A stretch of DNA of 64,000 nt, from positions 1-64,000 of IMG/VR virus record IMGVR_UViG_3300044981_000022. One strand, 5' to 3'. Source of the stretch: a virus (lineage: Duplodnaviria; Heunggongvirae; Uroviricota; Caudoviricetes). A model generated the notes under the pieces. The model had not been told where the DNA came from. It ran no database searches and saw only the letters and a program-made list of their open reading frames with translations. Both the position numbers and the translations under genes were made by a program. Each line of letters begins with the position of its first letter. Within the stretch, counting starts at the first letter, position 1. This document shows, piece by piece, positions 7,187 through 59,966 of this stretch.

Positions 7187-8329
7187 TCAACTAAAAAGAT
7201 GCGGAACAAAACTACTTAAATTATCTGTAATCGGGCCTTCTGATTCCCGGATGCCTATTCCAGCGGACACCTGATCGATGATCCAGCTTCCGATAACTGC
7301 ATAATCGTTGTCTTGACGCCATACCGGGGCTAGCTTTTGGAATACAAATCCTTCTTCACCGTAATCTCCGGTAGTACTCAATGTTCCTTCATTAGAATAA
7401 AATGTAATGTTCGCACCTTCTCTGGACATCTTCGGTTTACGAACATATTGATCCATTAGATGCGGACCGTCTAAATGAGATTCTAATAGATTAGGATGAT
7501 GTGGAAACATATCCCATAACACAGCCAAGGTTGCTTTATTCGAGAATAGCATCTTCCACGCCGGTTCGATCCACTGTGTTTTGGTATCAATCAAATGCTT
7601 TCCGAATTCCTCGTGAACCATCCACTCCCACGGATACAATTTAAAAATAGACTTGATTTCACGATTGCGCATATCAACGAATTTTTTACCGTCGAATTGC
7701 AAGTCGTTGCAAAATCCTATATCCTTCATCAAGATCATTTCTGTCTTTAACCCGGCCTGGGTCGCGGTGTCCCGCATGTAGTTCGCGGTCATTGTATCTT
7801 CGCCTGCCGGATCGTCTATATGCGCTAGATATAATGGGGAAGACATATAGTCATTCAGTTCTTTCCATTTTGCAATCAGTCTTTCATGGATTGAATTAAA
7901 TTGATCTGAAGATTTATGTAAGTCTTGTAGCCAGTACCATTGTACAACCGCCGCTTCTAACAACCCTGTTGGGGTATCGGCATTGTATTCCAAAAGCTTC
8001 GGTTCGTTCACGCCGTCGTATGCTAAATCGAGCCTGCCGTAAATCGCAGGAGGCTCTTCTTTCCAAGTTTTCTCAATCAATGGGATTGCGATCTGTGGGA
8101 TTCCTAGAGATGAATACAACTGCTCATCAATAATCTTTTGTCCGGCGAGAAGATATAGCCGCTGAATTTCATTTGTTGCTGCTTCTAATGTGTCTACCTG
8201 CTTCGCTGTAAACTCATAAAATCTTGATTCGTCCCAATATGGACGACCTTTAGTATGATGATAGATCAGGCCGAGTTCTTCGACCTGATCTACCCAATTC
8301 GAACGGGGTTTGGTTGAATGACGGATCAT
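7187..8329 (-). CDS. glutathionylspermidine synthase-like (ATP-grasp) family protein
   Basis: 380 aa; 'YGRLDLAYDG...LLEYNADTPTGL' matches the GspS family signature. Confidence 0.55.
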   Translation of the reverse strand: MIRHSTKPRSNWVDQVEELGLIYHHTKGRPYWDESRFYEFTAKQVDTLEAATNEIQRLYLLAGQKIIDEQLYSSLGIPQIAIPLIEKTWKEEPPAIYGRLDLAYDGVNEPKLLEYNADTPTGLLEAAVVQWYWLQDLHKSSDQFNSIHERLIAKWKELNDYMSSPLYLAHIDDPAGEDTMTANYMRDTATQAGLKTEMILMKDIGFCNDLQFDGKKFVDMRNREIKSIFKLYPWEWMVHEEFGKHLIDTKTQWIEPAWKMLFSNKATLAVLWDMFPHHPNLLESHLDGPHLMDQYVRKPKMSREGANITFYSNEGTLSTTGDYGEEGFVFQKLAPVWRQDNDYAVIGSWIIDQVSAGIGIRESEGPITDNLSSFVPHLFS

Positions 8330-17097: not shown

Positions 17098-17477
17098 TTC
17101 TTCCTCTTCTTTCGCTGTTCCTTTTCATAAACCTTCTCTAGTTTCGGCAAAGCGTCTTTCAAGAAGAATGCTACTCTGGTGTTCGCTTCGTCGAATTGAT
17201 TGTGAGTCATGATGAATACATAATTTGATGATTCACTTGAATACGACGGCTTAGGTCTGTATCTCAACCCTCGATCTATTAAAGATGCTTCATAGGCTTC
17301 GTGCAATAACGATGACAATACCTCGCCCCATTCATCGTTTATCCCGATAAAAATTTTTGTTAACCCGGTTCTGTTTTCTGGGAGAAAATCTACTGAACCG
17401 CCCATTGTTTTTGGATTAGCATACAATTCAACAAAGTTTAACCCGAGAGTAAATTTGCCTACGTAGATATAGTTCAC
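17094..17477 (-). CDS. hypothetical protein
   Basis: 127 aa. Confidence 0.35.
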   Translation of the reverse strand: MNYIYVGKFTLGLNFVELYANPKTMGGSVDFLPENRTGLTKIFIGINDEWGEVLSSLLHEAYEASLIDRGLRYRPKPSYSSESSNYVFIMTHNQFDEANTRVAFFLKDALPKLEKVYEKEQRKKRKK

Positions 17478-18400
17478 GAAAGCTTAACCAAAACTGCTGT
17501 AACGTTGTCACCAGTAGGAACGTCCAGGGCATTCTGAACTAGTCTCGTAGCGTCCGCGCCTGCTTCAATCAAAAGATTAATAGAAACTTGAGGATGAGTA
17601 GCGTGAGACGGATCGAATAAACCATCAGACGCTACAAGAACATAATCTCCGGTTTTGAGAGGCAGGCGAAAAATCTCAGGTTCTCGGGATAAAACTTTAT
17701 CTAAATAATAGTCTCCGAGTGCTCTAGACATCTGTAAACCGCTGCCGGAGTACTCAGCAAATAGATATCCTCCCGAAATAAATCCGCCACGCTGTTGTGC
17801 TGTTTTGGCTTCTGCGGGATTAGAACGGACATTATGTTCTGGAGAGCACCAAACTCCGTCATTCTTCACAAGTACCGGAGCGTCTCCGAGAACTCCGACA
17901 ATAACTTCAGAGCCGTCTTCTTTGATGATTGCAATCGAAGCCGCACAACCAGAATGCATACGCTGAGTAGCTTTATTTAGTTCTTGAAAGATGCCGAGAA
18001 TTATGCTTTCGAAGTTTGCGACTAAGAGTTTACTTCTGACTTCATGATACAAAGCGATTAATCGGTTTGCACAGTAGTCTGCTGTCTCAGAACCGCCGTG
18101 TCCGTCAAACACAGCTAGAAGATATCCTTCGTCAGGGGCGTGATAAACAATATGCCGATCTTCTTGATAAGATCGTAAACCCTTCTCTGATGCGTGAGTT
18201 ATTTCGAACTTCATATCTCTCTTGACCTTCAATTCTTCAATATCACCTATAAAGCGACAATGTTCGGCCATTCCGTTATCAATTTCAGCTTGAGGATAGC
18301 CATCACGCAGAAGAGTCTCGGCTAAAGTTTCTCCGTCTAACGGTTTATACGGTTTTGGAAAGCCGTATCTCCAACCTCCGGGCGGATCGTATATCAACAT
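17474..18400 (-). CDS. PP2C-family Ser/Thr protein phosphatase
   Basis: 308 aa; 'AVFDGHGG', 'VLVASDGLFD' PP2C metal-binding motifs. Confidence 0.8.
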   Translation of the reverse strand: MLIYDPPGGWRYGFPKPYKPLDGETLAETLLRDGYPQAEIDNGMAEHCRFIGDIEELKVKRDMKFEITHASEKGLRSYQEDRHIVYHAPDEGYLLAVFDGHGGSETADYCANRLIALYHEVRSKLLVANFESIILGIFQELNKATQRMHSGCAASIAIIKEDGSEVIVGVLGDAPVLVKNDGVWCSPEHNVRSNPAEAKTAQQRGGFISGGYLFAEYSGSGLQMSRALGDYYLDKVLSREPEIFRLPLKTGDYVLVASDGLFDPSHATHPQVSINLLIEAGADATRLVQNALDVPTGDNVTAVLVKLS

Positions 18401-18445
18401 TTGAAATCCTTCACATGGCCGTAGTACATAACACGGCCATGTTAG

Positions 18446-19846
18446 TTACTGTCCGAACTCAGAAGCATAAATGTACTGTAAAATAGCTTCCGAAAATCCA
18501 TCTATGTGAATCCAGTTATTTTTGTATCCGATACCGTTCTTTTCGTTTGAGATGTTGACCATGTAGTTGTTCGTACCGAACGCATTCGCGGTTGCAGGAT
18601 TGCACTTCTGATCACAATCCTGTTCGTCTGTGAATACAATGATACGGTCAGCGTGCTTTTCTTTCTCGAAGACATAATCCAAAACCTGCTTCAAGAAGAT
18701 TCCGCCTCCACCTAGTTCACCGGCGAATCCCTGGCGCTTGAACTTCTCAACCAAAGCCATACCGTGACGCGGTGGAACCAACGCGGTCTTATGACGGCGT
18801 GCGTAATCATCTCCAGCGGTTGCATAGATTGAAACATCTTCGCAGCTTTCACGAGCGATAGCAGCTAACGCGCCTGCGGCTTCGACACGGGTCATATCTG
18901 AACGCTTAGAGATATTTCCGTGTCCGTACATCGAGCCTGAGACATCGACAATCAAGATTGTCTTGCCCGGAAGTTTCGGCAGTTGCTGCGCAGACTTCAC
19001 TAGCAATTGATCTAGTTCATTTTCGAACTTCGGTGCAGCGGTTGCGGCTGCGACGAATCGAAACGGTAGAACTCTAGAGACATCTGCGTTTACTAGAGCT
19101 TCCTTGACTAATGATTGATCGACTCCAGCTTGCTCCATGTTTCGAAGATTACGAAGCAACGCCAACGCACCTAGCTTGTCTTCTCGAAGCAGACGGGTCC
19201 ATTCGGCTTTCTTATCGGTTGCCGCAGATAACGCGACTTCCCAGGTGTCCGGGGTCGCTAACTTGCCGTCAACCAATCGCTTCCATAGCTTCGCTTGCTC
19301 TCCACGCTTTCCACCAATCGGACGAGCGTGTGACAAGAATAGCACGTCACGCAGCTTGATGTCCCGATCTTGATTATACTTCGCTAAAGAGTACTCGTTG
19401 AACTTTGTGAAAGCAGCAGCAATGCCTAGCTGTAGCTGCTTAGACAACTTGTTCAATTTCTTGTTACCCGAACGTCCCTTAGAGTAAATAGCGAGAATTT
19501 CCGCCAATTCATCCGGACGCTGAATAACATAAGCAGCGGTCTGCGCAACCAAGTGACGATGGGTCTTTAACTTTGCCATCTCAACAACCAATAGCAAAGG
19601 TACATGTCGAAGCTTCATGTTCTCACGAGCCTCTAGCGCGATCTGTGCAACCTTCTCAGCCGGGACCTTTGCAACTAGCGAAGCTATTCTAGCTGCGATA
19701 TCTTCGCCGGATTCATAAAACGTATCCTCCCAAAGCATGCACGCCATTACCGAACGCCGAAGCTGTTGCTCCGCGTTAATATTAGATGCTCGTGCACCTT
19801 CGTGTGTGAAGATTTGTGGTACTCGAACTGCTATATTCAGACGCAT
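18446..19846 (-). CDS. rsr: Ro60-like protein (helical TROVE-like N-domain + C-terminal vWA)
   Basis: 466 aa; C-terminal MIDAS 'LIVDVSGSMYG...VFTDEQD'; N-terminal alpha-helical repeat domain with 'ALALLRNLRNM' resembling Ro60 'LLRNLGKM'; gene is immediately preceded by three Y-RNA-like modules. Confidence 0.6.
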   Translation of the reverse strand: MRLNIAVRVPQIFTHEGARASNINAEQQLRRSVMACMLWEDTFYESGEDIAARIASLVAKVPAEKVAQIALEARENMKLRHVPLLLVVEMAKLKTHRHLVAQTAAYVIQRPDELAEILAIYSKGRSGNKKLNKLSKQLQLGIAAAFTKFNEYSLAKYNQDRDIKLRDVLFLSHARPIGGKRGEQAKLWKRLVDGKLATPDTWEVALSAATDKKAEWTRLLREDKLGALALLRNLRNMEQAGVDQSLVKEALVNADVSRVLPFRFVAAATAAPKFENELDQLLVKSAQQLPKLPGKTILIVDVSGSMYGHGNISKRSDMTRVEAAGALAAIARESCEDVSIYATAGDDYARRHKTALVPPRHGMALVEKFKRQGFAGELGGGGIFLKQVLDYVFEKEKHADRIIVFTDEQDCDQKCNPATANAFGTNNYMVNISNEKNGIGYKNNWIHIDGFSEAILQYIYASEFGQ

Positions 19847-19864
19847 TTTGTGTTCCTTATTTAA

Positions 19865-20001
19865 AGTGAGGCAACAAGCGATAAAAGTAACGGATGTGCT
19901 GCCATTACACTACGCTTTCGGCATGACCCTACTCACGATGGGATTCGAACCCACACTATCTGATTCGTAGTCAGAAGTAACTCTTATCTACGGCACTCAC
20001 T
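19865..20001 (-). ncRNA. Y-RNA-like module A (YrlA-like, tRNA-like T-arm and D-arm)
   Basis: minus-strand terminal helix AGTGAG/CTCACT; conserved 5' 'UGCCGUAG..GAGUUACUUCU' and 3' 'CGCUUGUUGCC'; internal 'GUGGGUUCGAAUCCCAU' T-arm and 'UAGUGUAAUGGCAGCAC' D-arm-like. Confidence 0.6.
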
Positions 20002-20014
20002 GATTTACAAAATT

Positions 20015-20143
20015 CCCCAGGGCGACAAGCGACGAAAGGTATTTTCCGTGCTACCATTACACTAGACCGTCTCGTGACGGCTGCGGAATCGAACCGCTCT
20101 GGTTCTTTATGTAAGAAGTAACCCGTTGTCTACGGCACCTGGG
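20015..20143 (-). ncRNA. Y-RNA-like module B
   Basis: terminal helix CCCAGG/CCUGGG, second helix GACAA/UUGUC; internal 'GCGGUUCGAUUCCGC' T-arm and 'UAGUGUAAUGGUAGCAC' D-arm-like; same conserved loops as module A. Confidence 0.6.
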
Positions 20144-20155
20144 ATTAAACTTTTA

Positions 20156-20245
20156 AAGCGGGGCAACAATCGACTTAGGATGGGATTCTATCCCTTTCTT
20201 GTTCATGGTAAGAAGTAACCCAAATCTTACGGCACCCGCTTCGAT
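20156..20245 (-). ncRNA. Y-RNA-like module C (shorter)
   Basis: terminal helix GCGGG/CCCGC; conserved 'GUGCCGUAAG..GGGUUACUUCUUAC' and 3' 'CGAUUGUUGCC'. Confidence 0.5.
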
Positions 20246-20255
20246 TTCAAGACTA

Positions 20256-20852
20256 CTACGACTTCTTTGTTTTGTCAAGCTTTTTCTTTCGAGTAAGTTT
20301 CTTGTATAATTTGTTCCAGACTCTTTCAACATAACTATCTGAAACAAACGGAGCTAATTTTCCTGTGAATGGGGGAACATTTCCGTCTTCAGTTTGTACT
20401 ACATATACAGGAGTCGGCTCTATCTGATCTTTTATCTTAAACGTTCGTTCACTGGAAGTGACAGTGTTGGTGCTCTGGTGCATCATTTCTAGCGCCTGCT
20501 TCCAATCTGGACTTTGTTTTGTCCACGGCTTACCACAAATCGTACACTGAATTTCTTCACTACCATCAGAAAATATATGATATCGTAAAGAGTAATCTGG
20601 TTTTGGGCCGTGTACTTTTCCGCCTTTTAAATGACGGCAAACTCCCCAACGTTTATTTTGTAATTCTAAATACTGTCTCGCAAGATGTTTTTGCTTTTCA
20701 TCTCGTGCAGCAACTATTAACGCTTCGGCTTGTTGCTTAATTCTAGCTTTCTCTTCTTCTAAAGCTCTATACAGCCATGAGATGAATTTACGAATTAATT
20801 TGTTGAACATTTTCTTCCTTACGGCGTTGCCACACAGGAGGCAGAAATCCAT
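20256..20852 (-). CDS. zinc-ribbon/coiled-coil hypothetical protein
   Basis: 198 aa; 'CTICGKPW', 'CLLCGNAV'. Confidence 0.4.
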   Translation of the reverse strand: MDFCLLCGNAVRKKMFNKLIRKFISWLYRALEEEKARIKQQAEALIVAARDEKQKHLARQYLELQNKRWGVCRHLKGGKVHGPKPDYSLRYHIFSDGSEEIQCTICGKPWTKQSPDWKQALEMMHQSTNTVTSSERTFKIKDQIEPTPVYVVQTEDGNVPPFTGKLAPFVSDSYVERVWNKLYKKLTRKKKLDKTKKS

Positions 20853-57706: not shown

Positions 57707-57782
57707 GTGTCTGTAGCTCATTCAGTAGAGCACTCGGCTCTTACCCGAGGGGTGGTTGGGGCAGAGCCAACCAGACGCACCA
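57707..57782 (+). tRNA. tRNA-Lys(CTT) with non-canonical D- and T-loops
   Basis: acceptor GTGTCTG/CAGACGC, D GCTC/GAGC loop ATTCAGTA (no GG), anticodon stem CTCGG/CCGAG loop CTCTTAC, T-arm GTTGG-GGCAGAG-CCAAC (no TTC), CCA. Confidence 0.5.
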
Positions 57783-59186: not shown

Positions 59187-59792
59187 ATGAAAGCATCATT
59201 AAAGAAGTTAGCAGCAGCTAAAAGAAACGGCCAGATACTTCGTCAGCGAGCCATAGACGGCTATTTAAAGAACCCGAGTATCTGTAAGCAGTGCGGTCAA
59301 GTGATTCCGTTAGTACCCGCTGGTAAGAACGAATCGGTTGTATCAATTGCTCGACATAAAATATTTTGCGGTCATTCATGTTCTGCAAAGTTTAATAATT
59401 TATTTGAACAGTCACCAAAACGAATTAAGACTAGAATAGATAAGATTTGTACTGGTTGTGAAAAGGTAGTCGATTACAGAACAGTAGGTACTCTTTGTCT
59501 ATCTTGTAAGGTGGCGGCTTCTAGATTAAAATTAGAGAATTCAACTAGAAGTCAAGTTGTTAGAACTGTTTTGAGCGAACACGCTCGATCAGTCTTATTT
59601 GCAGATGGAATTAAACCGTGTTTAGTTTGTGGATATGATTTTGTTGTAGAAGCCGCCCACATTAAAGCAGTTAAAGATTTTCCGGCTGAAGCAACAATTA
59701 AAGAGATTAATGCTTTAGAGAATTTGCTTCCTCTTTGTCCTAATCATCATTTAGAGTTAGATAGAGGAAAACTAAAGCTAGAACAATTGTAG
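59187..59792 (+). CDS. HNH homing endonuclease (paralogue 1 in tRNA array)
   Basis: 201 aa; 'CLVCGYDFVVEAAHIKAV...LLPLCPNHH'; N-terminal Cys4 zinc finger; stop codon lies inside the tRNA-Asn 5' end. Confidence 0.7.
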   Translation: MKASLKKLAAAKRNGQILRQRAIDGYLKNPSICKQCGQVIPLVPAGKNESVVSIARHKIFCGHSCSAKFNNLFEQSPKRIKTRIDKICTGCEKVVDYRTVGTLCLSCKVAASRLKLENSTRSQVVRTVLSEHARSVLFADGIKPCLVCGYDFVVEAAHIKAVKDFPAEATIKEINALENLLPLCPNHHLELDRGKLKLEQL

Positions 59793-59864
59793 GGTGGCTC
59801 AAAGGCACAGCATCTGGCCGTTAACCAGACATTATTGCAGGTTCGAGTCCTGCCCCTACAGCCA
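59788..59864 (+). tRNA. tRNA-Asn(GTT)
   Basis: acceptor TGTAGGG/CCCTACA (perfect), anticodon stem TCTGG/CCAGA loop CCGTTAA, T-arm GCAGG-TTCGAGT-CCTGC, CCA. Confidence 0.6.
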
Positions 59865-59872
59865 TTTTATTG

Positions 59873-59952
59873 CAAGTGCCGTTAGAATTGGGTTACTTCT
59901 TATGATAAAAGAGCGTCCGAAAGGACATTTCCTAATTCGCTTGTTGCCTTGC
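59873..59952 (+). ncRNA. Y-RNA-like module D (paralogue of the modules next to the Ro60-like gene)
   Basis: terminal helix GCAAG/CUUGC, second helix GAAUU/AAUUC; conserved 'UGCCGUUAGA..GGGUUACUUCUUA' and 3' 'CGCUUGUUGCC'. Confidence 0.55.
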
Positions 59953-59966
59953 ATTTAGTTTTGATC

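What the first reader, a model, noticed from the sequence alone, without database searches (positions are those of the whole stretch)
18446..20245. Ro60-like (TROVE+vWA) protein gene preceded by three tandem Y-RNA-like modules with tRNA-like arms
The 466-aa protein has the Ro60 architecture: a helical repeat N-domain followed by a C-terminal vWA with a MIDAS motif (DVSGSM). Immediately upstream on the same strand lie three non-coding modules (19865-20001, 20015-20143, 20156-20245). They share conserved 5' (UGCCGUAG..G(G/A)GUUACUUCU) and 3' (CG(C/A)UUGU(U/C)GCC) segments. Each is closed by a terminal helix whose sequence differs between copies but stays complementary: AGTGAG/CTCACT, CCCAGG/CCTGGG, GCGGG/CCCGC. 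A second covarying 5-bp helix is also present (GACAA/TTGTC). Two modules carry a canonical T-arm (GGTTCGATTCC) and a D-arm-like element (UAGUGUAAUGGUAGCAC) but no anticodon arm. A conserved asymmetric internal loop between covarying helices is what a protein-binding site such as the Ro site on Y RNA looks like. The tRNA-like domain matches what has been described for bacterial YrlA-type Y RNAs. A phage-encoded Ro60 / multi-Y-RNA ribonucleoprotein in a genome with a 26-tRNA array would be an RNA quality-control or RNA-decoy system worth characterising.
Basis: partly seen in the sequence, partly recalled or inferred. Interest (0 to 1): 0.85.

Follow-up and report, generated by a model that had tools for sequence, protein, structure and literature searches.

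The report
Phage Ro60 gene with Y-RNA array
An uncultured phage carries a ring-shaped Ro60-type RNA-binding protein gene preceded by three small structured Y RNAs (two with a tRNA-like head), plus two more copies inside its tRNA cluster; the finding is real and well supported, but it is a further example of the Ro60/YrlA system already described in bacteria and phages.

Summary
The 466-aa protein (18446-19846, minus strand) is a full-length Ro60 homologue. Pfam TROVE scores 66 bits, and the best solved relative is Thermus phage phiRo60. The 13 best Foldseek PDB matches to the AlphaFold model are all Ro60 structures. Upstream on the same strand lie three RNA modules, and two more sit in the tRNA array (59871-60089, plus strand).

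A covariance model built from 25 short modules, two from this window, finds the three window modules left out of it. It also gives 137 hits in 45 of 52 related viral loci, all on the gene strand and 120 within 1.6 kb upstream. Fourteen of 14 modelled pairs covary (97% paired, against at most 50% when slid). Modules M2 and M3 carry T arm, closed acceptor-like hairpin, UA and D arm in that order, which is the YrlA layout.

The same modules lie upstream of chromosomal TROVE (rsr-type) genes in Nocardia, Kitasatospora and other bacteria. They also occur in cultured phages (Xanthomonas 10KY502B, CcrColossus, crAss001, Atuin).

The real one is an 8-bp helix next to GUUACUUC.

Phage Ro60 with Y RNAs was reported in 2014 and 2025, so this is a new member of a known kind. 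Its function in infection is inferred, not shown.

The parts
18446..19846 (-). Ro60-like (TROVE + vWA) protein gene, 466 aa
   Evidence: ORF. Pfam TROVE 66 bits. PHROG 850 'RNA-binding protein', E 1.3e-44, full length. phmmer against PDB 9l5y/9kop (Thermus phage phiLo Ro60), E 7.8e-21 over residues 14-418. AlphaFold2 model with pLDDT 84. The Foldseek top 13 PDB hits are all Ro60/Rsr, TM about 0.6.
18977..19807 (-). TROVE (HEAT-repeat ring) domain, residues about 14-290
   Evidence: Pfam PF05731. All-helical in the model, H25-H287. Basic stretch at residues 123-181. R161, R166 and R175 align with phiRo60 residues R163, R169 and R178, which contribute to Yrl2 binding (my mapping of the alignment onto residues named in PMC12135203; it assumes an 8-residue numbering offset).
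18449..18973 (-). C-terminal vWA domain; MIDAS DVSGS at 18932-18946
   Evidence: vWA_Ro60 20.5 bits (below cut-off) and VWA_2 14.6 bits. Alternating strand/helix fold from residue 292. D301, S303, G304, S305 and D407 are invariant in 32 homologues.
20156..20241 (-). Module M1: short Y RNA (YrlB-like). Closing helix, bulged U, GC/GC pairs, loop CGUAA / GAUUGUU, 8-bp helix 2 (GAUUUGGG/CCUAAGUC), GUUACUUC. Head of two small hairpins, one a degenerate T arm (GGGAUAGAAUCCC).
   Evidence: Sequence. The MFE fold gives this architecture, z -2.5. R1 gives 60.1 bits, but this module was in the seed.
20016..20143 (-). Module M2: YrlA-like Y RNA. V hairpin, T arm 20082-20098, closed acceptor-like hairpin 20065-20081, UA 20063-20064, D arm 20048-20062.
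   Evidence: R1 gives 30.3 bits, E 3e-7 with filters off; not in the seed. Helix 2 is imperfect, 6 of 8 pairs by direct reading. T/AS/D parse.
19865..20001 (-). Module M3: YrlA-like Y RNA. Anticodon-arm-like V arm 19959-19975, T arm 19938-19954, AS region 19913-19937, UA 19911-19912, D arm 19896-19910. It ends 18 nt before the ATG of the Ro60 gene.
   Evidence: R1 gives 50.4 bits, E 3.8e-11; not in the seed. Rfam tRNA partial hit 19936-19992, 29.5 bits, model positions 6-65. Parse.
59871..59953 (+). Module M4: short Y RNA inside the tRNA array, 6 nt after tRNA-Asn (59788-59864). Head includes a GAAA-capped hairpin.
   Evidence: Sequence. R1 gives 62.4 bits, but this module was in the seed. The MFE fold reproduces the architecture, z -2.6.
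59965..60089 (+). Module M5: Y RNA with a different head (three to four hairpins, no T or D arm), 13 nt before tRNA-Thr (60103-60176).
   Evidence: R1 gives 46.7 bits, E 3.7e-10; not in the seed. The MFE fold reproduces the closing helix, bulged U and helix 2, z -2.5.

Best explanation
This is a phage-encoded Ro60/Y-RNA ribonucleoprotein system of the bacterial Rsr-YrlA/YrlB type.

The gene makes a ring-shaped TROVE+vWA protein. The five modules are small non-coding Y RNAs built on one plan. The 5' and 3' ends pair into a closing helix. Then come a bulged U, two conserved pairs (GG/CC in the family, GC/GC here), and an asymmetric internal loop of conserved bases (5' YGWA, 3' GNYUURUU). Next is an 8-bp helix ending in the near-invariant GUUACUUC, and finally a variable head.

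Inferred steps:
- The conserved stem and loop is the Ro60 docking site. It corresponds to the GNCGAA-type site of YrlA and the bulged helix of animal Y RNAs.
- The head is the effector module. It is a permuted tRNA mimic in M2 and M3, and small hairpins in M1, M4 and M5. It would tether the ring to, or gate it against, other factors.
- M1-M3 are probably made from one transcript together with the Ro60 mRNA. M4 and M5 are probably made with the tRNA precursors. All would be released by host RNases.

Most likely role (about 40%): the RNP engages the host 3'-5' exoribonuclease PNPase, either redirecting or damping it. This would bias RNA turnover and RNA quality control during infection, as shown in vitro for Thermus phage phiRo60 and in vivo for Deinococcus Rsr/Yrn1.

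The identity of the parts is shown computationally. Binding, processing and role are inferred.
For: Protein.
- TROVE hit, and homology to phiRo60 over both domains.
- The predicted fold matches only Ro60 structures well: 9kop, 9l5y, 1yvp, 2nvo and human Ro60, TM 0.57-0.64. The next hits have TM 0.26 or less.

RNA.
- On a hand-picked seed of 25 short modules, 94.4% of cells pair, against 59.6% shuffled and at most 52% slid.
- On 124 distinct model-aligned modules, 97.4% pair, 14 of 14 pairs change on both sides, and the covariation score is 0.95 against at most 0.13 slid.
- The window's GC/GC in place of GG/CC is a compensatory swap, seen 11 times in the family.
- All 137 hits at E<=1e-3 lie on the gene strand. 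120 are within 1.6 kb upstream, with 1-8 per locus and a mode of 2-3.

tRNA-like head, using sequence-anchored parses of 39 modules.
- The AS stem is 82.9% paired in register, against 36-39% when one strand is shifted out of register and 46.9 +/- 3.0% with shuffled partners.
- The D stem is 98% paired, with GCUC/GAGC and GUGU/GCAC variants.

Link to known Y RNAs.
- GTTACTTC plus a T arm occurs in at least 120 genome stretches. In 29 of the 80 returned, a TROVE gene lies on the same strand, directly downstream in most, as in Streptomyces, Nocardia, Amycolatopsis and Actinomadura.
- R1 hits there as well.
- Those loci also hold 2-3 modules each.

Literature.
- YrlA design and its presence in 22 phages (PMC4201824).
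- phiRo60 binds Yrl1 and Yrl2 and attenuates PNPase (PMC12135203).
- In D. radiodurans, Yrn2, tRNA-Asp and Yrn1 are made as one precursor. This parallels M4 and M5 sitting in the tRNA array.
Against: - There is no expression, processing or binding data for this phage, which is uncultured with an unknown host.
- The 5' motif in the window (GCCGUAG, GCCGUAAG, GCCGUUAG) departs by one base from the published GNCGAAN0-1G. In phiRo60 assays each CGAA base contributed 3-4 fold to affinity.
- Rfam has no matching Y-RNA family, so there is no independent curated model hit.
- The experimentally validated phiLo Yrl1 and Yrl2 are not detected by my model; the best hit in that locus is E 0.01, and elsewhere in it.
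- vWA_Ro60 is below Pfam's cut-off.
- No PNPase, RtcB or RNA-ligase gene was found among the 41 window proteins scanned against Pfam, so nothing in the neighbourhood points to a partner.
- M2 has a weakened helix 2 and may be decaying.
- Helix 1 boundaries of the seed alignment were chosen by eye, which inflates helix 1. Helix 2 and the model-found modules are free of that bias.
Confidence: 0.85

Rival explanations
1. Anti-defence decoy. The RNP is the same, but its job is to neutralise a host immune system. The tRNA-like heads would act as decoys or sponges for tRNA-targeting nucleases. Alternatively, the RNP would block a specific defence system, with Ro60 protecting and presenting the RNAs.
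For: - Bas63 gp130, a Ro60-like protein encoded next to a tRNA cluster, counters the Ppl defence system (bioRxiv 10.1101/2024.10.10.617714).
- The crAss001 TROVE gene is an early gene (PMC8375218).
- TROVE genes sit inside tRNA arrays in several phages: L006, L011, L028, L029, L048, Atuin and RHph_TM30.
- Heads are diverse and the modules are multi-copy.
- M3's V arm mimics a tRNA-Arg(ACG) anticodon arm.
Against: - The same module arrays stand upstream of chromosomal TROVE genes in free-living bacteria, so the design is not phage-specific.
- No defence or anti-defence gene was identified nearby.
- The Bas63 result concerns the protein. Its RNA partners are only conjectured.
- The acceptor end is closed, so many tRNA-recognising enzymes would not be engaged.
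Confidence: 0.2
2. Cis-acting leader. The modules are not free RNAs but structured 5'-UTR elements through which the protein autoregulates translation or stability of its own mRNA.
For: - M1-M3 lie on the gene strand.
- M3 ends 18 nt before the ATG, next to the ribosome-binding site.
- 120 of the 133 hits in the viral loci are immediately upstream of the gene.
- No terminator-like site separates the modules from the gene.
Against: - M4 and M5 lie 40 kb away on the other strand, inside the tRNA array.
- The modules are downstream of the gene in crAss001, L011 and L025.
- In S. Typhimurium, M. smegmatis and D. radiodurans the equivalent RNAs accumulate as discrete Rsr-bound small RNAs (PMC4201824).
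- The closing helix defines self-contained units separated by AU-rich spacers.
Confidence: 0.08
3. tRNA pseudogene debris or chance tRNA-like fragments with no function of their own.
For: - The T arm and D arm sequences are tRNA-like, and Rfam's tRNA model reaches its threshold on M3, 29.5 against 29 bits.
- Annotators and ARAGORN call parts of such modules tRNAs in other genomes.
Against: - The arm order is permuted (T, closed acceptor hairpin, D), and this order is conserved with covariation across dozens of loci.
- The non-tRNA base (both helices and the loop motifs) is conserved and covaries.
- There is no extended identity to any of the phage's own 25 tRNAs.
- The modules are strictly linked to TROVE genes by strand and position.
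Confidence: 0.02

Closest known systems
Bacterial Rsr (Ro60) with YrlA/YrlB Y RNAs (S. Typhimurium, M. smegmatis; Chen et al. 2014, PMC4201824; YrlA structure PDB 6cu1, bioRxiv 10.1101/312249)
   Same: - A TROVE+vWA protein with Y RNAs encoded next to it on the same strand.
- A stem formed by the 5' and 3' ends, carrying a conserved 5' motif of the GNCGAA type.
- UUAC (YUAY) at the start of the V region.
- T arm, closed acceptor-like stem-loop, UA and D arm in that order.
- At least two Y RNAs per genome, one tRNA-like and one short.
- My model of the phage modules also hits modules upstream of chromosomal TROVE genes in Nocardia, Kitasatospora, Lentzea, Streptomyces and others.
   Different: - The protein is short (466 aa against about 550 aa for the TROVE genes in the actinobacterial loci). 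It belongs to a large clade that is mostly metagenomic and viral: at least 8000 protein clusters in the search, which was capped at 8000 candidates.
- The window motif is GCCGUAG, not GNCGAAG.
- The 3' strand (CGCUUGUUCC) is also conserved in this clade, whereas Chen et al. found only the 5' strand recognisable.
- No rtcBA operon context.
- Two copies are dispersed into a tRNA array.
Thermus phage phiLo phiRo60 with Yrl1/Yrl2 (Hu et al. 2025, PMC12135203; PDB 9kop, 9l5y)
   Same: - A phage-encoded Ro60 homologue, and the closest solved structure to this protein.
- Y-like RNAs encoded just upstream.
- A stem-bulge-stem binding site with a CGAA-type motif.
- Biochemically shown binding and a PNPase interaction, which is the model for the mechanism proposed here.
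   Different: - Only about 23-25% identity.
- As described, the phiLo Yrl RNAs have hairpins and a bulge and no tRNA-like domain. They are not detected by the model of this family.
- phiLo has two RNAs, against five here.
Deinococcus radiodurans Rsr-Yrn1/Yrn2-PNPase (RYPER)
   Same: - A Y RNA tethers the Ro60 ring to PNPase.
- Several Y RNAs are encoded upstream of rsr.
- Yrn2, tRNA-Asp and Yrn1 are co-transcribed, like M4 and M5 among the tRNAs.
- A T-arm-like element sits in the effector module.
   Different: Chen et al. regard Yrn1 as a separate lineage, with a different arm orientation and no full D arm. A PNPase interaction is not shown for this phage.
Bas63 gp130 (Ro60-like anti-Ppl factor; PhageMaP preprint 10.1101/2024.10.10.617714)
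   Same: A phage Ro60-like protein encoded beside a tRNA cluster. The authors suspect that some of the 'tRNAs' are Y RNAs.
   Different: Similarity was reported at the structural level only. I did not compare sequences. No RNA partners are defined, and the anti-defence role has not been tested for this clade.

Membership tests
Ro60 / Rsr protein family | TROVE domain above the Pfam gathering score | tested here: met
   PF05731 scores 66 bits against a cut-off of 23, E 4.6e-18. PHROG 850, E 1.3e-44.
Ro60 / Rsr protein family | C-terminal vWA domain with a MIDAS motif | tested here: met
   DVSGS at residues 301-305, with D301, S303, G304, S305 and D407 invariant. The model has a Rossmann-like alternating strand/helix C-domain. 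The phmmer alignment to phiRo60 runs through it. The Pfam vWA_Ro60 score alone, 20.5 bits, is below its cut-off of 27.7.
Ro60 / Rsr protein family | Overall fold of solved Ro60 rings | tested here: met
   The AlphaFold2 model (pLDDT 84, pTM 0.67) matches 9kop, 9l5y, 1yvp, 2nvo, 2i91 and human Ro60 with E 4e-16 to 4e-8 and TM 0.57-0.64. No other fold exceeds TM 0.26. This is a predicted model, not a solved structure.
Ro60 / Rsr protein family | Binds Y RNA on the outer surface and misfolded RNA in the central cavity | not testable with these tools
   Only indirect evidence: three of seven mappable basic residues that matter for phiRo60-Yrl2 binding are conserved.
YrlA-type bacterial Y RNA (Chen 2014) | Encoded within 4 kb of the Ro60 orthologue on the same strand | tested here: met
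   M1-M3 lie 19-395 nt upstream on the same strand. M4 and M5 do not meet this: they are 40 kb away on the other strand.
YrlA-type bacterial Y RNA (Chen 2014) | Long stem formed by pairing of the 5' and 3' ends | tested here: met
   Closing helix plus helix 2: 14 of 14 modelled pairs covary and 97.4% of cells pair. On the seed alignment 94.4% pair.
YrlA-type bacterial Y RNA (Chen 2014) | GNCGAAN0-1G motif near the 5' end (presumed Rsr site) | tested here: inconclusive
   The window modules have GCCGUAG, GCCGUAAG or GCCGUUAG, with U in place of the first A. The family consensus is GGYGWAG. Among 124 distinct modules, 11 read GGCGAA and one AGCGAA at the first six positions of the motif. The actinobacterial chromosomal modules have UGCGAAG or UGCGCAG.
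YrlA-type bacterial Y RNA (Chen 2014) | tRNA-like domain: V region, T arm, closed acceptor-like stem-loop, UA, D arm, in that order | tested here: met
   Present in M2 and M3. Across 39 modules the AS stem pairs at 82.9% in register against 47% for the shuffled control, the T stem at 89.7% and the D stem at 98.1%. M1, M4 and M5 lack it and are YrlB-like or other.
YrlA-type bacterial Y RNA (Chen 2014) | Conserved YUAY at the start of the V region | tested here: met
   UUAC lies within GUUACUUC. In 124 distinct modules these positions are 91-123 of 124 conserved.
YrlA-type bacterial Y RNA (Chen 2014) | Detectable homology to Y RNAs next to bacterial rsr | tested here: met
   R1 hits upstream of chromosomal TROVE genes in Nocardia niwae, Kitasatospora, Lentzea, Streptomyces, Cohnella, Hymenobacter and others. 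The sequences are shown. Chen's own covariance models were not available.
YrlA-type bacterial Y RNA (Chen 2014) | Bound by Rsr; pseudouridine-55 and dihydrouridine made by TruB and DusA | not testable with these tools
   Needs RNA from infected cells.
Genuine tRNA | Cloverleaf with an open acceptor stem and 3' end, called by tRNA finders | tested here: not met
   ARAGORN calls none of the five modules. The Rfam tRNA hit on M3 is partial (model positions 6-65, 29.5 bits) and covers only the 5' half. The acceptor-like stem is closed by a loop.
Rfam-curated Y RNA families (searched across all 4227 Rfam families) | Match to any curated Y-RNA model | tested here: not met
   With E up to 10 over 19700-20500, the only hit in all of Rfam was tRNA. 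At the gathering threshold over the whole window, only tRNA was found.

The most novel reading that the evidence does not exclude
The arrays are a toolkit rather than redundancy. One Ro60 ring is served by several Y RNAs that share a docking base but carry different heads: permuted tRNA mimics with anticodon-arm-like V arms, GNRA-capped hairpins and multi-hairpin heads. Each head would capture a different host factor. The system would work as a phage counter-defence or RNA-turnover hijack, for example by sponging tRNA-directed nucleases, PNPase or Ppl-type systems. That would explain why it is so often embedded in phage tRNA clusters and expressed early.
Probability: 0.2. Interest if true: 0.7.

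Novelty: new member of a known kind. Interest (0 to 1): 0.38.

Why it matters
The physiological role of bacterial and phage Ro60/Y-RNA particles is still poorly understood. This locus adds little in kind, but the comparative work around it is useful in four ways.
- The Ro60-binding base is shared by tRNA-like and short Y RNAs. It comprises two covarying helices, a bulged U, conserved loop bases and the near-invariant GUUACUUC. It can be modelled, so short Y RNAs that earlier searches missed can now be found.
- Arrays of 2-8 such RNAs accompany a very large, mostly viral clade of Ro60 genes.
- The same modules occur in tractable cultured phages: a 43-kb Xanthomonas phage with five, CcrColossus with eight, crAss001 and Arthrobacter phage Atuin. 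The function could be tested genetically in these.
- Parts of these RNAs are currently mis-annotated as odd or truncated tRNAs in public records.

Tried and rejected
- Rfam search for a Y-RNA family: only tRNA was found, so I built my own model.
Rejected.
- Extra pairs suggested by the MFE folds inside the internal loop (Y9-R204, G10-U203): the contingency table shows no association, with C-A in 22 of 124. Not claimed.
- A fixed anticodon-arm geometry for the V arm (5 bp, 7-nt loop, 5-nt linker): only 63.5% paired. The V arm is variable and not claimed as conserved.
- Derivation from the phage's own tRNAs: BLAST finds only T-arm-length matches.
- A functional link to the downstream PP2C phosphatase: it is not conserved in 61 related loci.
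- Detecting the validated phiLo Yrl1 and Yrl2 with my model: nothing upstream of the gene, and only E 0.01 elsewhere in the locus.
- Sigma-70 promoter or intrinsic terminator around the array: nothing on the minus strand beyond chance. The one minus-strand terminator-like site inside a module is the D arm region of M3. By eye there is a TTGACA at 20272-20277 (-) with a poor -10. I did not rely on it.
- RNA-repair partners (RtcB, RNA ligase, PNPase) in the window: none among the 41 proteins scanned against Pfam.
- Chen 2014 supplementary alignments and phage list, and the 2020 Annual Review: not held.
Full report
**What is in the sequence.** The minus strand holds a 466-aa ORF at 18446-19846. 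A 409-nt non-coding stretch runs upstream of it, as far as the stop codon of the preceding ORF at 20256. In that stretch I read three units with the shared 5' segment U-GCC-GUA(A)G...GUUACUUCU and the shared 3' segment CG(C/A)UUGU(U/C)GCC. ARAGORN finds 25 tRNAs, all on the plus strand at 56.4-63.8 kb. Rfam adds a 26th.

**The protein.**
- Pfam gives TROVE at 66 bits (cut-off 23). The Ro60-specific vWA model scores 20.5 bits, below its cut-off of 27.7.
- PHROG 850 'RNA-binding protein' matches over the full length.
- Against PDB sequences, the only hits are the two entries for the Ro60 homologue of Thermus phage phiLo (E 7.8e-21, residues 14-418, both domains).
- An AlphaFold2 model built on 32 homologues (pLDDT 84) was compared with the PDB. 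Ranks 1-13 are all Ro60 proteins: phiRo60, Xenopus Ro60 with RNA, D. radiodurans Rsr and human Ro60, with TM 0.57-0.64. Everything below has TM 0.26 or less.
- The MIDAS residues D301, S303 and S305 and the later D407 are invariant in the homologues.

So the protein is a Ro60 homologue in both domains. Many members are viral. They include crAss001, CcrColossus, Xanthomonas, Rhizobium, Ralstonia and Brevundimonas phages.

**The RNA modules are a conserved, structured family.**
- In 52 IMG/VR loci that encode relatives of the protein, the exact 8-mer GTTACTTC recurs on the gene strand just upstream of the gene, often several times.
- I aligned 25 short modules and proposed a structure:
  - a closing helix of about 6 bp;
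  - a bulged U;
  - two conserved pairs;
  - an asymmetric loop;
  - an 8-bp helix whose last pair uses the G of GUUACUUC.
- On that alignment 94.4% of cells pair, against 59.6% in shuffles and at most 52% when partners are slid. Fifteen of 16 pairs change on both sides. I chose the ends of these seed sequences by eye, which favours helix 1. Helix 2 carries no such bias.
- The covariance model R1 finds the window modules that were not in the seed: M3 (50.4 bits), M5 (46.7 bits) and, with filters off, M2 (30.3 bits).
- Over the 52 loci plus the window, R1 gives 137 hits at E<=1e-3, every one on the strand of the TROVE gene. They fall in 45 of 52 loci, with 120 within 1.6 kb upstream. There are 1-8 per locus, most often 2-3.
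- On the 124 distinct aligned modules, 97.4% of cells pair. All 14 pairs show changes on both sides. The covariation score is 0.95, against at most 0.13 when slid. This alignment is fitted to the model, so it leans towards the structure, but the margin is very large.
- The window's GC/GC in place of the family's GG/CC is itself a compensatory swap, seen in 11 family members.
- The loop bases are conserved without pairing: 5' Y-G(124/124)-W-A and 3' G-N-Y-U-U-R-U-U. Two further pairs suggested by energy minimisation show no covariation. Conserved unpaired bases between covarying helices are what a protein site looks like. That remains inference.

**The heads.**
- M2 and M3 carry, after GUUACUUC, a V hairpin, a T arm, a hairpin that directly abuts the T stem, the dinucleotide UA and a D arm. 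Chen et al. 2014 and Wang et al. 2018 defined this order for YrlA. It is a tRNA whose acceptor stem is closed by a loop and whose anticodon-stem position leads to the Ro60-binding stem.
- I took 39 modules located only by the T-loop and D-arm sequence.
  - The acceptor-like stem pairs at 82.9% in register. It pairs at 36-39% when one strand is shifted out of register, and at 46.9 +/- 3.0% with shuffled partners. Every pair type occurs at every position.
  - The D stem pairs at 98%, with two compensatory variants. The T stem pairs at 89.7%, despite a few mis-parses.
- M3's V arm is an anticodon-arm look-alike, which is why Rfam's tRNA model just reaches threshold on it.
- M1 and M4 are short, and M1 keeps a degenerate T hairpin. 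M5 has a different head of several hairpins. Independent energy folding of M1, M4 and M5 reproduces the common base.
- None of the modules is a copy of the phage's own tRNAs.

**Two further modules.** M4 (59871-59953) and M5 (59965-60089) lie on the plus strand between tRNA-Asn and tRNA-Thr. They are therefore most likely made with the tRNA precursor. In D. radiodurans, Yrn2, tRNA-Asp and Yrn1 are likewise one precursor. Their position, 40 kb from the gene, argues against the idea that the modules are merely a cis-acting leader of the Ro60 mRNA.

**Link to known Y RNAs.**
- In 29 of the 80 loci returned, a TROVE gene lies in the 8-kb stretch, always on the same strand. In most it starts within a few hundred bases downstream. 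Examples are Streptomyces, Nocardia, Amycolatopsis, Actinomadura, Kitasatospora and Lentzea.
- R1 hits modules there too. Direct reading shows 2-3 modules per chromosomal locus, with the same plan and a UGCGAAG or UGCGCAG 5' motif.
- Modules also occur in cultured phages: five in Xanthomonas phage 10KY502B, eight in CcrColossus, two to four downstream of the gene in crAss001, several in Arthrobacter phage Atuin, and some in Rhizobium phage TM30.
- The validated Yrl1 and Yrl2 of phiLo are not detected, and they look different.

I conclude that the window's RNAs belong to the YrlA/YrlB family in the broad sense. Three modules in tandem is the usual arrangement, not an oddity.

**How it most likely works.**
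- Shown by computation: a Ro60-fold protein and five structured RNAs of a family that is tightly linked to Ro60 genes.
- Established elsewhere: Ro60 binds the stem of Y RNAs mainly through the 5' strand. The other end of the Y RNA binds effectors. In D. radiodurans and S. Typhimurium the RNA tethers Rsr to PNPase. phiRo60 binds its two RNAs with nanomolar affinity through basic residues and the CGAA motif, forms ternary complexes with host PNPase, and attenuates it.
- Inferred here: the phage protein docks on the shared base of M1-M5. The heads decide the partner. The particle alters host exoribonuclease activity or RNA surveillance during infection.
- I put the identity of the system at about 0.85 and the PNPase-centred role at about 0.4.
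- An anti-defence role is the main alternative. It is supported indirectly by Bas63 gp130 countering Ppl, by early expression in crAss001, and by frequent embedding in tRNA clusters.

**Context.** The window is the replication and nucleotide-metabolism region of an uncultured phage. It encodes PolA, PrimPol, UvrD, RNR, ThyX and a DNA ligase. The best polymerase match in cultured phages is about 36% identical. The downstream PP2C phosphatase is not conserved next to the gene elsewhere. No RNA-repair genes were found among the proteins scanned.

**Novelty.**
- Chen et al. reported YrlA-like RNAs next to Ro60 in 254 bacteria and 22 phages.
- Jumbo-phage surveys mention TROVE proteins with tRNA-like partners.
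- A Listeria phage study proposed abundant upstream RNAs as Y RNAs.
- phiRo60 was characterised in 2025.

This locus is therefore a new member of a known kind. Three things may go beyond what the papers I could read state: a model of the shared base that also captures short Y RNAs, the size of the arrays (up to eight), and the dispersal of copies into tRNA clusters. I could not check the 2014 supplementary tables or the 2020 review.

Noticed in passing
window 59871-60089 (+): Two further Y-RNA modules (M4, M5) lie inside the tRNA array, between tRNA-Asn and tRNA-Thr. They are 40 kb from the Ro60 gene and on the other strand. M5 has a head with no T or D arm.
   Followed up: yes
window 63502-63528 (+), next to tRNA-Arg(tct) 63546-63620: A sequence like the 5' half of a module (CCGUGGCGUUGUUAAGGGUUACUUCU, with the family's GG rather than this phage's GC) lies directly upstream of a genuine tRNA. 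No convincing 3' half follows. R1 gives only 9.3 bits. It could be a remnant or chance.
   Followed up: partly
window 57707-57779 (+): Rfam finds a 26th tRNA (43.7 bits) that ARAGORN did not report.
   Followed up: no
L056 2128-2195 (CcrColossus), L057 2831-2898 (Xanthomonas phage 10KY502B); L012, L016, L037, L042, L044, L049: Public records annotate the 5' half of a module as a 68-nt 'tRNA-Gln' or 'tRNA-Thr'. ARAGORN makes odd calls (Pyl, Ser-aga, Phe-aaa and others) that overlap R1 hits, so Y-RNA modules are being mis-annotated as tRNAs. A tRNA-SeC call lies upstream of the gene in L040, where R1 reported no hit.
   Followed up: partly
window 19915-19922 (-): GCCGAAAG, an exact match to the published Rsr motif GNCGAANG, sits in the linker between the acceptor-like hairpin and the D arm of M3, away from the presumed docking site. 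It could be chance (six specified bases).
   Followed up: no
window 17474-18400 (-) and 18415-18440: A PP2C-type phosphatase gene follows the Ro60 gene after a perfect 8-bp hairpin (AUGGCCGU/ACGGCCAU) with no U tract. The pairing of the two genes is not conserved in related loci.
   Followed up: partly
L041 1374-1785: A permuted tmRNA gene, called by ARAGORN, lies next to a six-module array upstream of a phage TROVE gene.
   Followed up: no
L031 2063-2193: One module carries its tRNA-like parts in the normal order (D arm, anticodon-like arm, T arm) instead of the permuted order. The head architecture is therefore not uniform.
   Followed up: no
window 59187-59792 (+), 62407-63051 (+), 7187-8329 (-): HNH endonuclease and VRR-NUC ORFs are interspersed in the tRNA array. 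A glutathionylspermidine synthase homologue (470 bits) lies in the phage replication region.
   Followed up: no
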